Assembly (NCBI RefSeq): GCF_963676685.1
Contig: NC_092344.1
Span: forward strand, 22,134,001-22,198,000
Source of the DNA: Mytilus edulis
Lineage: Eukaryota
DNA: 64,000 nucleotides
Direction: 5' to 3'
The stretch's first letter is position 1. Each line of letters begins with the position of its first letter. Positions 3,001 through 30,000 of this stretch are shown in pieces. The position numbers are program-made.

Positions 3001-6000
3001 GACAACAACCCGACAATAGAGAAGACAACAGCAGAAGGTCACCAACAGGTCTTCAATGCAGCGAGAAATTCCCGCACCCGGAGGCGTCCTTCAGCTGGCC
3101 CCTAAACAAATATATATATACTAGTTCAGTGATAATGAACGCCATACTAAACTCCAAATTTTACACAAGAAACTAAAATTAGAAATAAAACAAGACATAC
3201 AAAGGCCAGAGGTTCCTGACTTGGGACAGGCGCAGAAATGCGGCGGGGTTAATACATATTGTTTGCAAGCCTATCAAGTAAAATATATTGATCATTAATA
3301 ATATTTCGTGTTTTTTTCTCAAAACGAATTCATAATACCACAATACAGGAAGAACCAAATATATCGGACTGTAAAAAAATCCTTAACCATGCAACTAGAA
3401 GCATCCGGCTCCTCCATACAAAAATAGACACATTAAAACGTTTAAACCCGCTGCATTTGTTTGCACCTGTCTTAAGTCGGGAACATGTTGTTCAGTGGTA
3501 TTCGTTTGTTGATGTGGTTCATAAGTATTTATCGTTTTTCGTATATACTAGACCATTGGCTTTCCTGTTTGAATGGTTTAACACTAGTGATCTTGGGGAC
3601 CTCTATAGGTGTGAATCAAGGCTCCGCGTTGAAGGCTTGCTTTGACCTGTTATGATTTACTTTCAACAAATTGTGACTTAGATGGAGACTTGTCTCATTG
3701 GCACTCATATCATATTTTCTCATTTCTCTGACATAAACAAAAACTAAAAAGCAAATATCACATGACCAAGATAGACTGACTTGGTACAAACACACACTGT
3801 GATACACTGGTGACACTGAATGTTACACAAAATAAAGCATCTTTTCTTTTTCTGTGAACATGTTTAATAAATATTGGCCGTAAGTTTTGCTGTTTCATAC
3901 TCGTTTCAACTACATTTATCTCATCCTGTTTCTTCGCTGTTGTGCGCTTTCTGCATACAGTATAATAAAGAACAGGAAGCTATATAAAACCATATATGGA
4001 AAAAATCCGTTCGCTATTATCATTATGGAAAATGTATATCCGCACCAAATTAATGCCATTACAGACCGACTCCGGCATTCAAATATTCCCAACAAAGTTT
4101 CTTGGATTTCATAGATCCAATTTCGGAAAATTTCTACAAATCCAACAAACATCGGTCTGCGCTGCTGTCGATTCCAGACAACCAAACGATCCAAGTTGTC
4201 CATCAGATCACTGTTTGAAGAAGTGTCCGAAAAAGAGTCTGATTGCTCTGAAAAATCATCACCATTAATTCTTCCATTGAGAGATTCTTCACTTCCATCG
4301 AACTTAGGAAATGAAATGGCGTCGATCCGACAAGGCAGCCGACTATCTTCCTCGACAGAAACATCCAGATCTACTTCCGAAACTGACCTATCGCTTACTT
4401 GTTCCGACATTGAGTCATCGCTTTGTGTAGCAATAGACCGAATAGCTACGTAAGCTTCATCCTGAAACTAAACAAAATAAAACTTTTAATAATTTTCATT
4501 AAAATTCTTTCCTGACTCAATAATTTGGTAAATATTGATTTATCAAGTTGTAGCTATTTCTATAAATTCATATTTGGTCAGAAATTCATACACGATTTCA
4601 TAAAAAAAACTATTATTATTTTAGGATCAACAAACTTTTCTCAAATCTAATTTACTCTAATCTATGAAAAAAATATTTACCAAGAAGCAGAAGCAGTTGG
4701 TTGTAAGTTTTGACGTAAGTTCATTTGTGAAATTGGTTTTTGATTTAAGACTTGACGTAAGTGTGATCTTAGACTTACGATGTTTTGTGAAATTGGCCCC
4801 AGGAAGGAAGGAGGTTCCGGGGAGTTAGAACCTCTTTTACAATCAATGCATTTGAATTGGGACACATGGTTAGAACACATTTTTAATTCGTTCATTTTTT
4901 TGTCCATAAATTAGGCCGTTAGTCATTTCGTTTGAATTGTTTTACATTTGTCATTTCGGGACGGTCATTTCGGAGCCTTATATAGCTTACTAGCCGGTAT
5001 GGGCTTTGTCCATTGTTGAAGGCCGTACGGTGATCTATAGTTGTTAAATTATGTGCAATTTGGTCTCTTGTAGTGAGTTGTCCCATTGGCAATCATACCA
5101 AATCTTCTTTTTTATATTTATTCTGGGTCGGAATCTCCCTTTTAAAAAGGTGGATCTGCCCCTGAGAAGAGGATTTTTAAAAGTCGGATGGGGAGGGGGG
5201 ACACGCGCTCTTATGGAGATACATAAATAATTAATGAATATACCTTATTTATGACCCACTCAAAACGTTAAATAGTTCCCCCCTGTAGACATTGCATTTT
5301 GACGATATCTTAAAAGTGCATTCTATACATTAAGTGTTTTATATATGCTAGTATATATCTATTTCACAAAGTTATAAGTTATTGTGTCTTCGGGAGTATA
5401 CATGTTACCTACATCATTCTTTGATATTCAGAGGTAATGTATCGAGATCTAAATGCAGATGACATTTCATAAAAATCTGATAAATGATTTAATAATTTGA
5501 ATATTAAATTATAGAGAAAAAAAACATTTTTTTTTTTTTTTTAAACATATATATTCATTTATTGCTGACCATTTCTGATTTCCAATAGATTTGTTTTTAT
5601 ATTGACGCCTTTTACTTTATTTGCTGTAAATGTGTCTTACCTTTTTATCTTGTTCACGCCAGTTGTCAACAAAATCTTGAATAGAATAATTGACGTGCAA
5701 TCGCCTGTTCAAAACTGATGAAACTAGTGTCCTTTTTCGACATGTCGGACAAGAAAACTTCAATCTTGGGAATGGACATTGAGGAAGTTGTTCTGTTGTC
5801 AGTCTGGCAAGATTTTTTAGGCAGCTAAAATTGAGAAAGACAATTTGTTTTTGAACATATTGAAGGGAATAAAATATTTCTTTTTTACATATATAGAGAC
5901 AATCCGAACTTGACAAGCAAGTTTATTGGTGACTGTAAGTGCTTGTGGGATTACAAATCCTATAATTTCGTTTCACATATTTGTTATAATGAGCATTTAT

Positions 6001-27000: not shown

Positions 27001-30000
27001 AAATCTAAATATTTTGACACACTATCAATACATCCAAACCAACACTTTTTATTCTAAAGTAAAAGGGGAATAATATGCAGTTTTGTAATAGTACGGAAAT
27101 GACAGAAAGAGGTACTTTTTTTGTCAAACGTTTAAAGAATGAAAATAAAGATTGAATTAGGTATTTACAAATATTACACTTTTTGAAAAACACTTATTCA
27201 AAGTAATTTTCGAGTATTGTAACTTACTTGAGACAGAATGTATGACCGCAAGGCAAAACTGTCGGTAGGTTGTAATATTCCCAACATATTCCACATTTCA
27301 GCAAATTTACTATATCTTGATTCAGAGTAACCGGGGCTACGTTCGGACGGAGTGAGGGATCCATTTCCGCAATCGAAACAACGCGACTGAAAAAAAAAAT
27401 GCCGTCCGAACAAAACGTCCTTTGTTATGAGTTGGCAACTATCAGCGTCATAGGAGCTCTAAGCGACGCAACAAACCCGGATGTTAGGCAAGATACACGA
27501 GCAAGCTTACGTTTCTAAAAACAATGATGGTGAAAACCATTCAAATACTTTAACTATATATAAAATCAAAATTGAGAATGGAGATGGGGAATGTGTCAAA
27601 GAGACAAAAACCAGACAAAACCCCATGTAACTGTTATATGTGCCACATGTGGAACAGGATCTGCTTTCCCTTTCGGTCAAGTTTTTTTGTAGGATTCTTG
27701 TATCTAAGTCTTTGGTTTTTCTATGTTGTGTCTTGTGTACTGATATTTGTCTATTCATCTTTTTTCCCTTTTTTCCCTTTTTTGCCATTTTCGTTGTCAG
27801 TTATTTTCGATCTACGAGTTTGATTGTCCCTCTGCTATATTTCACCCATCTTTTATAACTATACTAGTCAACAAAAGAAACGATACACGACTTTTTTCAA
27901 ATTAAAGATGAAGTTTTCCGTTTATAGGACCAATATTGAAGGTAGTAATACTTAATGACCATAGAAATATAAATCCGTTTAATAATTTTTTTTTGTTGCT
28001 TTCATGACGTCATTTGGCGAAATTTAACTTTTTTGACAAAATTTACATAAAACGACATTTTTAAAAACATAACTTCCAACTAATGCTGCCAACCTCTCAT
28101 TTAAAGGTAAAGACAATGTTTGCCATCAATTCTTTTTAAAAAATCATACAGTTTGTTCGTTTATTTGTTTTTGACAATAGACAATACTTTATTAATAAAC
28201 CTCAGACACATAGGTGTACACGTATACACATGTTTATACTCAATACATTCAAACTAAACATAATAATGCTACATACATGGTAAAATATAGCAAAATGTCA
28301 ATTTACAAACTACCATAACATTCAACTCAAAACAGACTAACATAAATCACAAGTATCGTATAAGAATTTTTAAAAATATTGCTAAGTTTTTGTAAAGTTC
28401 TACATGACATTTGTAAAGCGAAGTTCAGCCCCACAAAAAAATCGTTAAAACATTATCAATTGATTTACCTGTAGACATGCAGTAGGTGTAAACTTAAAGT
28501 GAATTTAAAAAAAAACGGTAAAAATCTTAAAACTAATCCGAAAGGTTCCAAATTTACAGTGTGTTGTTTCCATATCTTAAGCATTGATTTGAGACGAAGA
28601 TTTTTTTTTGTGCATTTTTTGAGATTTAAAAAAAACACTTTTTTTTACCAAAAATTAACAATATTTCAACCCATTAGTTACATCATGAACTTATCTTGAT
28701 TAGCATATTGGATGATTTTAAACAAATTTGAAAATTCATTTAGTACTGAAAAAATTGTGTGTCGATTTTTTATCCAACTTTCCGAAAAAATAATTTGCAC
28801 CCTATGATCGTTTACACAGAATTTAGTTACTTTTCGACAGGTTTTGATTTTCATTATCATATGTGCCGGCCATACATTGCAAATGAAAGCTTTATAAAAA
28901 AAAAAGTGTATCTAATTTTGTTTTATATTTTAAAATACTTTTTGATAAATTTTATTTCAAAGTCGTGTATCGTTTCTTTTGTTGACTAGTATATGTGCAG
29001 ATAAGTAGAAAGAATTGGAAAACAAAAAGATACGGGTCTGCAATTAATGATTTAAGGATACTATACATAGAAGAAATAAAAAGAAAGGAGCTTTTCTATT
29101 AACTTCAAGTCTTGCTCCTCGTCGCGATATAAATAGTCGTGATTTAAAGCATTCATCAATCAATCAATCAAGCAATCAAGCAATCAAGCAATCGATGCCG
29201 TATAGAACCCTTTTTAAGGATTAAATTTACCTCAGAATTATCGGAAATATCAGTGTAATGCAATATCTGACAGAACATAAATTGAATTCTAGTTGATCTG
29301 TAGTTATGTTTGAAATGGATCTAAGATAACTTTACCTTTATAAAAGACTAATACTTTTGTTTTATTAGAATAGTGAATACGTATACCAGGAAAGGTTAAA
29401 AATTCGGATCAAAATTTCTGAAATATGAATGGGTTCGCAATCAGGTTAATTTATCATATAAATGTGTGTCATGCGTCAGTGTTACGATAAGGTGCAGATA
29501 TAGTATACCTGACTTTCTTTCTCGCGCTACTACAGAAATTTAACTTCGGCTAACACGATGTGTGATACTTTTAAAGCGGAATTTAAGCTTAAACATTTCG
29601 GATTTCCATGCTCAAAGCCCGAGGCTTTATATACATGTCAGGTATGTGCTGATTTTTCTCTTAAACTGTTTCTTCCTATATTGTGTGGTATTATTCACCC
29701 ACGTAGTAGATATAATTGTCGTATGAATTTCGTCATTTTGTCATTTAATATATTTGTGCGGTTTGAAAGATGAAATGGGAAAAAAATATTTTTTTAAGAA
29801 AAAAAAAGTATTAGTTCGTTTTAGGATTATATGTTGTTTGTTTTTCAAAGTAGATTTTTTGGTCTTTTGCTTTTTTTTCTTCCTTTTCGCCTTTAATATT
29901 ATTCATATATTTTTTTTATAAAATGGTAGCCAAGTTCTGTAATCACTTGTTTTAAACTGCTCCAAGAAACTCCCACAGTTAATATGACACTGGCAGTGAA

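What the first reader, a model, noticed from the sequence alone, without database searches (positions are those of the whole stretch)
3916..27364. Two B-box-less TRIM-type RING paralogues with identical exon frame but swapped third exons (membrane anchor vs coiled coil)
Seen: the genes at 3916-6167 and 23559-27364 share strand, 3-exon layout, a phase-2 intron inside the RING (after CGH.FC) and a phase-0 intron before the tail. Both have an expanded loop before CPxCR and the post-RING (L/V)HVNY helix motif. Exon 3 is unrelated between them: acidic linker plus hydrophobic C-terminus in one, coiled coil plus N/Q/T-rich tail in the other. Known: the RING plus downstream xNxxL helix resembles TRIM N-termini, which normally continue into B-box and coiled coil; no B-box Cys/His pattern is present here. 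Inference: a lineage-specific modular E3 family in which a RING cassette is re-targeted (membrane vs cytosol) by exchanging the last exon. The ORF track misses exon 1 of both genes in the correct frame.
Basis: partly seen in the sequence, partly recalled or inferred. Interest (0 to 1): 0.68.

Follow-up and report, generated by a model that had tools for sequence, protein, structure and literature searches.

The report
Two ancient mollusc RING ligase paralogues
Two neighbouring mussel genes encode related ubiquitin-ligase RING heads joined to unrelated tails, one a membrane anchor and one a coiled coil; the pair is old, shared by snails and bivalves, already annotated, and fairly ordinary.

Summary
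Both genes lie on the minus strand and have three coding exons with GT-AG introns of phase 2 and phase 0. Their exon translations occur letter for letter in two Mytilus edulis RefSeq proteins: XP_071180054.1 (285 aa, "RNF135-like") and XP_071180079.1 (257 aa, "SH3RF2-like"). One correction: exon 3 of gene A starts at 4467, not 4461.

Exons 1-2 encode a homologous long-loop C3HC4 RING with flanking helices (profile-profile E 1.1e-24). That alignment ends at the exon 2/3 border. The predicted fold is closest to the TRIM25 and TRIM21 RINGs. No B-box exists anywhere in the window. The tails show no significant homology (E 0.08).

This is not a recent modular family. Each gene is the orthologue of its own family, found in both bivalves and gastropods. 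The two orthologues carry consecutive accessions on one record in Lottia and in Littorina, which suggests adjacency. Only two tail types were found.

The best reading is an ancient tandem duplication. Whether exon 3 was exchanged or diverged beyond recognition cannot be told. Gene A is probably anchored by a highly conserved two-helix hairpin. Gene B is soluble, with a coiled coil and a conserved C-terminal DPAI-S motif. Function is untested.

The parts
6046..6167 (-). Gene A exon 1. ATG at 6167; encodes residues 1-40 plus 2 nt; N-terminal helix and RING ligands 1-5 (C19 C22 C34 H36 C39).
   Evidence: RING Pfam hits on this piece alone (zf-C3HC4 27.0 bits, cut-off 21).
5641..5824 (-). Gene A exon 2. 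RING ligand 6 (C42), a 23-residue loop, CPTCR (C66, C69, R70), and the post-RING helix with LHVNY.
   Evidence: cassette residues 11-106 have pLDDT 80-96.
3916..4467 (-). Gene A exon 3 including the TAA stop. The acceptor in use is at 4468, six nt upstream of the alternative CAG.
   Evidence: P0188 contains the 4467-start translation at offset 102.
4144..4455 (-). Gene A acidic/Ser-rich linker (residues 107-210), predicted disordered.
   Evidence: pLDDT below 50 for 107-210. (length-variable and poorly conserved across the family, apart from the RS-x-x-Q motif at its start).
4078..4140 (-). Gene A helix just before the membrane segment (residues 212-232). Holds the 16-residue stretch weakly similar to the start of the gene B coiled coil.
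3922..4074 (-). Gene A hydrophobic two-helix hairpin (helices 234-253 and 258-284), with family-invariant R236, W243, Y246 and P259.
   Evidence: 19-residue Kyte-Doolittle mean above 1.6 at 247 and 259-266.
27228..27364 (-). Gene B exon 1. ATG at 27364; residues 1-45 plus 2 nt; N-terminal helix and RING ligands 1-5.
25520..25718 (-). Gene B exon 2. Ligand 6, a 24-residue loop, CPNCR, and the post-RING helix with VHVNY.
23559..23996 (-). Gene B exon 3 including the TAG stop.
23781..23969 (-). Gene B predicted helices 122-144 and 149-184 (coiled-coil-like), with the conserved KRKSVVNDAR-x-IDELR.
   Evidence: Only a weak Pfam Filament hit (E 0.037).
23604..23654 (-). Gene B conserved C-terminal linear motif DLTDIDPAILSVRTTRT. 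DPA(I/V)xS is present in 8 of 10 family members aligned.

Best explanation
These are two real, already annotated Mytilus edulis genes. They encode paralogous RING-type E3 ubiquitin ligases that arose by a tandem gene duplication before bivalves and gastropods diverged.

Both genes keep the ancestral first two exons. These encode a C3HC4 RING with an unusually long loop before the last Cys pair, and helices on both sides, folded like the dimer-forming RINGs of TRIM25 and TRIM21. Both lack the B-box that defines TRIM proteins.

The third exon differs. In gene A it gives a disordered acidic linker, then a helix and a very conserved two-helix hydrophobic hairpin. The hairpin would hold the protein in a membrane with the RING in the cytosol. 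In gene B it gives about 60 residues of helix (coiled-coil-like), a variable low-complexity stretch, and a conserved short C-terminal motif (DPA-I/V-x-S) that looks like a docking site.

Shown here: gene structure, identity to RefSeq proteins, cassette homology, absence of a B-box, family distribution, and shared records with consecutive accessions.

Inferred: E3 activity via E2~ubiquitin binding on the RING, RING dimerisation through the flanking helices, membrane versus soluble location, and the tail deciding place and substrate.
For: - Exon translations are identical to XP_071180054.1 and XP_071180079.1. A spliced 980-nt transcript-type contig encodes P0007, 99% identical to exon 3.
- All eight zinc ligands, the Pro after ligand 7 and the Arg after ligand 8 are invariant in 10 of 10 members of each family.
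- Cassette profile-profile comparison: probability 99.6, E 1.1e-24, 94 columns, A 11-104 against B 16-112, with two small gaps.
- Reciprocal test without circularity. An HMM of A cassettes alone ranks the 10 B members 1-10 of 94 outsiders (78-87 bits, best other 77.7). An HMM of B alone ranks A members 1-8, 10 and 11 of 94 (65.7-90.9 bits, best other 66.1).
- In the tree, A is one clade (SH-aLRT 87) and B is one clade (99). The tree with A+B held together has a log-likelihood 7.34 higher than the free search; p-AU 0.641.
- Linkage. In Lottia, A is ESO84319.1/XP_009064932.1 and B is ESO84320.1/XP_009064933.1, on one 1,238,503-bp scaffold. In Littorina, A is KAK7102590.1/XP_070193160.1 and B is KAK7102591.1/XP_070193161.1, on one 70,200,420-bp record. 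In M. coruscus both are on one 1,358,570-bp scaffold. In Haliotis cracherodii both are on one 70,419,761-bp record. In this window they are 17.4 kb apart.
- Fold. AF2 cassette pLDDT is 80-96. Foldseek against PDB: TRIM25 5fer_D E 6.7e-6, TM-target 0.83, rmsd 2.6 A; TRIM21 6s53_A TM-target 0.86, rmsd 2.1 A; 30 hits at E<=1e-3.
- Tails. The A hairpin helices have pLDDT 72-84 and hydropathy above 1.6. B has no window above 1.01. The A tail is conserved from mussels to oysters, scallop, clam and gastropods.
Against: - The free tree search left A and B in an unresolved polytomy of 70 rows (53 of 98 inner branches open; 88 columns only).
- The margin of B over the best other cassette under the A-only HMM is thin for the Mytilus B protein itself (78.1 against 77.7 bits).
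- The 84 comparison cassettes were picked by likeness to gene A, not to gene B, so a family closer to B could be missing.
- Adjacency in Lottia and Littorina is inferred from consecutive accession numbers, not from coordinates.
- Intron positions in other species could not be read.
- The second intron is 2 codons off in the ungapped alignment.
- Named B-family hits are only from Mytilus and gastropods; no oyster, scallop or clam was seen.
- The gene B model is of low confidence overall (mean pLDDT 54.3).
- No activity, location or topology has been measured.
Confidence: 0.7

Rival explanations
1. After duplication, one copy acquired a foreign last exon by exon shuffling across the phase-0 intron. 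The RING cassette is therefore a module that is re-aimed by exchanging exon 3, possibly as part of a wider modular family.
For: Detectable homology ends at the exon 2/3 border in both genes. The intron there is phase 0 in both, which allows exchange without frame change. The tails show no significant profile similarity (E 0.081). Neither tail matches any Pfam family.
Against: Only two tail types were found with this cassette. Both tails are as old as the bivalve-gastropod split, so divergence beyond recognition is equally possible. No donor gene for either tail was found: tail searches returned only members of the same family (10 of 37 and 7 of 92 candidates). Two weak hints of shared ancestry exist inside exon 3: the 10/16 stretch, and a similar motif near the exon start, RS-I/V-x-T/S-Q-T/S in A and x-N-T-D/E in B, read by eye.
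Confidence: 0.2
2. The two genes are not sister paralogues. They are members of two different TRIM-derived RING lineages that lost the B-box independently and happen to lie near each other.
For: The free tree does not join them. RING domains are short and saturate. Several B-box proteins carry an equally long-looped RING: Pfam RING models span 51 residues in P0124, P0087/P0089, P0161 and P0099. These score close behind (66-78 bits).
Against: Reciprocal best-family ranks. The constrained A+B tree is better than the free one. The first intron has the same column and phase. Loop lengths are nearly equal, 23 and 24 residues. The two orthologues share a record in four further species, with consecutive accessions in two of them.
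Confidence: 0.1
3. The pair works as one enzyme. The helix-flanked RINGs of A and B heterodimerise, as BRCA1-BARD1 or RING1B-BMI1 do (recalled), so that membrane-anchored A brings soluble B and its docking motif to a membrane.
For: Long-retained linkage of the two paralogues. Both RINGs have N- and C-terminal flanking helices.

A co-fold of A 1-110 with B 1-118 gave weak support. The score was 0.53 and the best of 3 controls 0.05. The runs agree in at least 70% of contacts, and the partner's pLDDT is at least 72. The mark was reached by 51 of 78 solved complexes and 2 of 108 mismatched pairs. At 0.60 or under it was reached by only 5 of those 78, and by all 4 mismatches that passed (of 180). 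On eukaryotes it was reached by 39 of 65 solved pairs and 2 of 126 unrelated pairs.
Against: The tool itself rates such a pass as more often wrong than right unless the guess was likely beforehand. Similar RING dimers have been solved, so the pass may be from memory. Homodimers were not tested, so the result does not separate hetero- from homodimers. The alignments were not used by the tool. The pair is not on one record in Aplysia or Haliotis rufescens assemblies. B was not seen in oysters or scallops, which have A.
Confidence: 0.12

Closest known systems
TRIM RING domains (TRIM25, TRIM21, TRIM2, TRIM5)
   Same: C3HC4 RING with helices before and after it. These are the best sequence hits in PDB (E about 1e-6) and the best fold hits (TM-target 0.81-0.86). 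Of the 84 nearest cassettes elsewhere, 48 sit in B-box proteins.
   Different: Neither gene has a B-box. Gene A has no coiled coil. The loop between ligands 6 and 7 is about 9 residues longer than the Pfam model. The predicted helical region of B is only about 60 residues.
TRIM13 / TRIM59 (membrane-anchored TRIMs; architecture recalled; names given to relatives by some sources)
   Same: N-terminal TRIM-type RING and a C-terminal hydrophobic anchor (gene A).
   Different: Those have a B-box and a coiled coil between RING and anchor (recalled). Gene A has a disordered acidic linker and a two-helix hairpin with an invariant Pro. No sequence similarity of the tail to anything outside molluscs was found.
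RNF182-type small RING ligases with two C-terminal membrane helices (architecture recalled)
   Same: Same overall layout as gene A. A chordate 'RNF182-like' cluster was rank 11 in the language-model look-alike search (score 0.82).
   Different: A score under 0.9 is only a lead. Homology was not tested because no reference sequence was at hand. The RING of gene A is nearest to TRIM RINGs.
RNF135/Riplet, SH3RF2, RAD18 (the names that RefSeq gives these genes or their orthologues)
   Same: RING similarity only: RNF135 8g7t_B E 3.8e-6 for A; RAD18 2y43_A E 1e-6 for B.
   Different: Neither protein has a SPRY, SH3, UBZ or SAP domain (precomputed Pfam lists). The names are by-products of automatic best-hit naming.
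BRCA1-BARD1 and RING1B-BMI1 heterodimeric RINGs
   Same: RINGs with flanking helices. BRCA1, BARD1 and RING1B/BMI1 chains appear among the sequence or fold hits.
   Different: Heterodimerisation of A with B has only a weak co-fold pass behind it.

Membership tests
RING-type (C3HC4) E3 ligase | Eight zinc ligands in C-x2-C ... C-x-H-x2-C-x2-C ... C-x2-C order | tested here: met
   Present in both genes. All eight are invariant in 10 of 10 members of each family. Pfam RING models score above cut-off.
RING-type (C3HC4) E3 ligase | Ubiquitin-ligase activity with an E2 | not testable with these tools
   Needs an in vitro autoubiquitination assay.
TRIM (tripartite motif) family | RING of TRIM type at the N-terminus | tested here: met
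   Best PDB sequence and fold matches are TRIM RINGs.
TRIM (tripartite motif) family | One or two B-box zinc fingers after the RING | tested here: not met
   No PF00643 in the exon pieces, in P0007 or P0016, or in the precomputed list for P0017. 0 regex hits in six frames of the window. 0 of 72 locus ORFs.
TRIM (tripartite motif) family | Long antiparallel coiled coil after the B-box | tested here: inconclusive
   Gene A has none: residues 107-210 are disordered. Gene B has helices 122-144 and 149-184 at pLDDT 53-68 and no TRIM_CC Pfam hit.
RNF135 / Riplet (RefSeq name of gene A) | C-terminal PRY/SPRY domain | tested here: not met
   No SPRY or PRY in P0003 or P0007.
SH3RF2 (RefSeq name of gene B) | SH3 domains after the RING | tested here: not met
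   No SH3 in exon pieces P0005 and P0006, nor in the precomputed Pfam list of P0017.
TRIM13/TRIM59-type membrane TRIM | C-terminal transmembrane anchor | tested here: met
   Gene A only: helices 234-253 and 258-284, hydropathy above 1.6. Membership still fails on the B-box.
RNF182-type RING with two C-terminal membrane helices | Sequence homology of RING and tail to RNF182 | not tested
   Only a look-alike score of 0.82. No reference sequence was available to compare.
Mollusc family A (RING, acidic linker, hairpin; unnamed) | Full-length alignment, with invariant R236, W243, Y246 and P259 in the tail | tested here: met
   Named members come from Mytilus, Saccostrea, Ostrea, Pinctada, Ylistrum, Mactra, Lottia, Haliotis, Littorina, Aplysia and Elysia.
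Mollusc family B (RING, helices, variable Q-rich stretch, DPA-I/V-x-S; unnamed) | Cassette plus helical region plus C-terminal motif | tested here: met
   There are 14 strong hits (E<=1e-52); the 12 that carry a source name are all molluscs and the other two are unnamed records. Then comes a gap to E 1e-14.

The most novel reading that the evidence does not exclude
The two linked paralogues form an obligate heterodimeric E3. Gene A's ultra-conserved membrane hairpin tethers the enzyme. Gene B's coiled coil and DPA-I/V-x-S motif recruit the substrate or adaptor. This shared function would be why the gene pair has stayed together since before bivalves and gastropods split. It would be a mollusc-specific membrane ubiquitination system built from B-box-less TRIM RINGs.
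Probability: 0.12. Interest if true: 0.55.

Novelty: new member of a known kind. Interest (0 to 1): 0.3.

Why it matters
Neither gene needs a new model, since RefSeq has both. What this work adds is their classification. The automatic names (RNF135-like, SH3RF2-like, RAD18-like, TRIM13, alpha-protein kinase 1) are misleading.

The two genes belong to two uncharacterised families that so far appear only in molluscs. The families descend from a TRIM-like RING that lost its B-box, and they have stayed linked since before bivalves and gastropods diverged.

The pair is a tidy case for studying how a RING head is combined with different targeting tails. The hairpin of family A is more conserved than the RING itself, which makes it a candidate for a specific membrane function. 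None of this would surprise a specialist in RING ligases.

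Tried and rejected
- Homology of the two third exons. Pairwise comparison gave a 10/16 stretch. The family profiles of the tails gave only E 0.081. The full-length family profiles gave no second hit beyond the cassette. I treat it as not shown.
- Recent gene conversion between the copies, suggested by the identical HVNY. 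The exon 2 DNA alignment shows only short shared runs. Rejected.
- Further copies, or alternative A-like or B-like last exons, in the window. tblastn of all pieces found only the two genes.
- B-box exons hidden in introns or flanks. None found.
- Language-model look-alikes. All scores were under 0.9 (best 0.88 for A and 0.89 for B, the latter an arthropod 'TRIM59-like' cluster). These are leads only.
The 283-aa proteins of other Mytilus species also contain FQ and differ by an indel in the linker.
- The combined A+B seed HMM gap (106-125 bits against 79.7) is partly circular. It was replaced by the single-family HMM test.
- Literature. A search for six accession or locus identifiers found 0 papers. 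Two topical searches (257 papers, 15 listed; 6 papers, 4 listed) showed nothing on these genes in titles or abstract starts. I saw listings only and read no paper.

Full report
**What is in the sequence**

Both genes lie on the minus strand.

- Gene A: exon 1 is 6167-6046, exon 2 is 5824-5641, and exon 3 is 4467-3916 including the TAA stop.
- Gene B: exon 1 is 27364-27228, exon 2 is 25718-25520, and exon 3 is 23996-23559 including the TAG stop.

All four introns begin GTAAG and end AG after a pyrimidine-rich stretch. Their lengths are 221, 1173, 1509 and 1523 nt.

Exon lengths of 122+184 nt (A) and 137+199 nt (B) put the first intron in phase 2 and the second in phase 0 in both genes.

The stop-to-stop ORF lists contain all six exons. 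Exon 1 is only 41 and 46 codons from its ATG. That explains why an ordinary ORF track would miss it.

**How the spliced models were checked**

Instead I checked each model by locating the separate exon translations inside database proteins that the searches returned.

- XP_071180054.1 (P0188, 285 aa, 'E3 ubiquitin-protein ligase RNF135-like [Mytilus edulis]') contains the three gene A pieces exactly, at offsets 0, 41 and 102.
- XP_071180079.1 (P0017, 257 aa, 'SH3RF2-like [Mytilus edulis]') contains the three gene B pieces exactly, at offsets 0, 46 and 112.

The window is therefore Mytilus edulis chromosome sequence, and both genes are already annotated.

A 980-nt contig of transcript type encodes P0007. 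It is 99% identical over exon 3 and carries the RING.

One correction to a 283-aa reading: all database forms read KKFQDE. The acceptor in use is therefore the TAG six bases upstream of the CAG, and exon 3 starts at 4467.

**The shared cassette**

Exon 1 alone reaches the Pfam RING cut-offs in both genes.

The exon 1 pair is 13/25 identical (E 1e-9). The exon 2 pair is 11/35 identical (E 2e-6).

I built family alignments of ten full-length members each (A3, A4). They align with probability 99.6 and E 1.1e-24 over 94 columns, A 11-104 against B 16-112, with two small gaps. The alignment ends at the exon 2/3 border.

- The first intron falls in the same column (A S41, B K46).
- The second intron is two codons apart in the ungapped alignment.
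- All eight zinc ligands, the Pro after ligand 7 and the Arg after ligand 8 are invariant in both families.
- The loop between ligands 6 and 7 is 23 and 24 residues. The 42-column Pfam model spans 51 residues.

**Is it TRIM-type?**

It resembles a TRIM RING:

- The best solved-structure sequence matches are TRIM25, TRIM2, TRIM21 and TRIM5, alongside RNF135 and BRCA1 for A and RAD18 for B. All are near E 1e-6.
- The AlphaFold model of the gene A family has pLDDT 80-96 over residues 11-106. It shows a helix before and a long helix after the RING.
- Foldseek puts the TRIM25, TRIM21 and TRIM2 RINGs first (TM-score on the target 0.81-0.86, rmsd 2.1-2.6 A).
- Of the 84 nearest cassettes outside the two families, 48 sit in proteins with a B-box, often with SPRY, NHL or filamin domains. 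The other 36 do not, and many of those are short.

It is not a TRIM family member. No B-box is present in the exon pieces or in the full-length relatives. None is in any of the six frames of the window, or in 72 other minus-strand ORFs of the two loci.

**The tails**

Gene A:
- Residues 107-210 are acidic, Ser-rich and predicted disordered.
- Next come a helix (212-232) and two hydrophobic helices (234-253, 258-284) at pLDDT 72-84.
- The 19-residue hydropathy mean exceeds 1.6 at 247 and 259-266.
- This part is the most conserved of the protein. R236, W243, Y246 and P259 are invariant from mussels to sea slugs.
- I read it as a hairpin with a Pro-containing turn. That would leave the RING and the short basic C-terminus on the same, presumably cytosolic, side. 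Topology is inferred, not shown.

Gene B:
- No hydrophobic window exceeds 1.01.
- Helices are predicted at 122-144 and 149-184, and the tail is disordered (mean pLDDT only 54.3).
- The tail is not merely N/Q/T-rich. KRKSVVNDAR-x-IDELR, TWA-x-RLF-x-P and DL-T/S-D-x-DPAI-x-S-V-R-T-T are conserved.
- The DPA(I/V)xS motif recurs near the C-terminus in 8 of the 10 members aligned. In gastropods it follows a long Q-rich insert.

**Where the families occur**

An exhaustive phmmer search with P0007 over 1.84 billion representatives gave 1071 hits at E<=1e-3, of which 33 were at E<=1e-10.

Those that also match the tail and carry a source name are all molluscs:
- Mytilus (five species), Saccostrea, Ostrea, Pinctada, Ylistrum and Mactra.
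- The gastropods Lottia, Haliotis, Littorina, Aplysia and Elysia.

The rest come from unnamed records, whose origin I did not pursue.

A profile search with the gene B family gave 87 hits at E<=1e-5 among 7225 candidates.
- 14 are strong (E<=1e-52). The 12 that carry a source name are all molluscs (Mytilus and ten gastropod genera); the other two are unnamed records.
- Then comes a gap to E 1e-14, where generic RINGs begin.
- No named oyster, scallop or clam member of family B was seen. That search uses a word filter, so absence is not shown.

**Are they sister paralogues?**

- In a 104-row, 88-column tree each family is one clade (SH-aLRT 87 and 99). Both sit in an unresolved group of 70 rows.
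- Forcing A+B together gave a tree 7.34 log-likelihood units better than the free search. The p-AU was 0.641, so sisterhood is not rejected and is mildly favoured.
- An HMM built from A cassettes alone ranks the ten B members 1-10 of 94 outsiders.
- An HMM built from B alone ranks the A members 1-8, 10 and 11 of 94. Margins are thin at the lower end.
- The two orthologues carry consecutive accession numbers on one record in Lottia and again in Littorina.
- They share a record in M. coruscus and Haliotis cracherodii.
- In this window they are 17.4 kb apart, with one unrelated plus-strand gene between them (thrombospondin type 1 and chitin-binding repeats).

Together with the shared intron column and loop length, I put about 75-80% on an ancient tandem duplication. 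The age rests on both families being present in bivalves and gastropods. Dating that split to the Cambrian is recalled, not tested.

**Swapped or diverged third exon?**

The data cannot tell. Homology stops at a phase-0 intron, which fits exon exchange. But no donor for either tail was found, only two tail types exist, and both are ancient.

A 10/16 match (FRNWIYEIQETLLGIF against FENRINEIQKNLDGIF) is not significant between profiles (E 0.081). A similar short motif at the start of exon 3 in both families is read by eye only.

The DNA of the two second exons shows no sign of recent conversion.

**Mechanism**

The most likely mechanism is inferred. Both are RING E3 ligases that bind a charged E2 on the RING. 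The flanking helices probably mediate dimerisation, as in the TRIM RINGs they resemble. The tail sets the place and the client.

- Gene A sits in a membrane, where its conserved hairpin may also recognise a partner or substrate.
- Gene B is soluble and uses its helices for assembly and its C-terminal motif for docking.

I co-folded A 1-110 with B 1-118 to test a heterodimer.
- The verdict was weak support: score 0.53, best of three controls 0.05.
- The runs agree in at least 70% of contacts, and the partner's pLDDT is at least 72.
- The mark was reached by 51 of 78 solved complexes and 2 of 108 mismatched pairs.
- At 0.60 or under it was reached by only 5 of those 78, and by all 4 mismatches that passed (of 180).

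Similar RING dimers have been solved, and homodimers were not tried. The result therefore adds little.

**Novelty and limits**

The gene models are in RefSeq under names that fail their own domain tests: RNF135 without SPRY, SH3RF2 without SH3.

I found no paper naming these loci. A search for six identifiers found 0 papers. Two topical searches gave only listings. No paper text or supplement was read, and supplements were closed.

What stayed unchecked:
- Intron positions, orientation and true adjacency of the orthologues.
- A B-centred exhaustive search.
- Homology to RNF182.
- All biochemistry.

Noticed in passing
window 12542-18526, + strand: A separate gene lies between the two RING genes on the other strand. 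Six exon-sized ORFs match thrombospondin type 1 repeats (PF00090, E 1.3e-10 to 1.8e-3), followed by three with chitin-binding peritrophin-A domains (PF01607, E 1.3e-12 to 2e-8).
   Followed up: partly
window 6377-6745, + strand: A 123-aa open frame starts with Met about 210 bp from the ATG of gene A, head to head. It is helical/charged, with only a weak below-cut-off HAP1_N match (E 1.4e-4, 21.6 bits against 33.9). It may be the first exon of a divergently transcribed gene sharing a promoter region.
   Followed up: partly
window 38864-48487, - strand: A BTB-BACK-Kelch gene. One 368-aa exon has BTB (E 4e-20) and BACK (E 7e-21), and at least five downstream exons have Kelch motifs.
   Followed up: partly
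window 53971-56154, - strand: Two exons of a cyclophilin-type peptidyl-prolyl isomerase (PF00160, E 4e-25 and 4.9e-21).
   Followed up: partly
window 22267-23106, 24809-25240, 25916-26235: Interspersed repeats in and beside gene B. There is a 97-nt inverted pair, 95% complementary, inside intron 2 (24809-24905 / 25144-25240). Copies of another element lie downstream of the gene (22.27-23.1 kb) and, inverted, in intron 1 (25.9-26.2 kb). ORF listings suggest further copies near 35.9, 38.2 and 60.6-62.5 kb.
   Followed up: partly
window 4462-4470, - strand: Tandem acceptors six bases apart (TAG|TTTCAG|) before exon 3 of gene A. Every database protein seen uses the upstream one. Whether the downstream one is ever used was not tested.
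   Followed up: partly
gene B, window 25520-25718 and related proteins: The Mytilus gene B cassette sits on a long branch (1.37 changes per column, against a median of 0.59). The exact HVNY shared with gene A is seen only in Mytilus; other family B members read T-L/C-N-Y/F.
   Followed up: partly
database records of the orthologues: Automatic names are inconsistent for one and the same family: RNF135-like, TRIM13, rad18-like (family A); SH3RF2-like, RAD18-like, TRIM13-like, 'alpha-protein kinase 1' (family B). The last is probably triggered by the Q-rich insert.
   Followed up: yes
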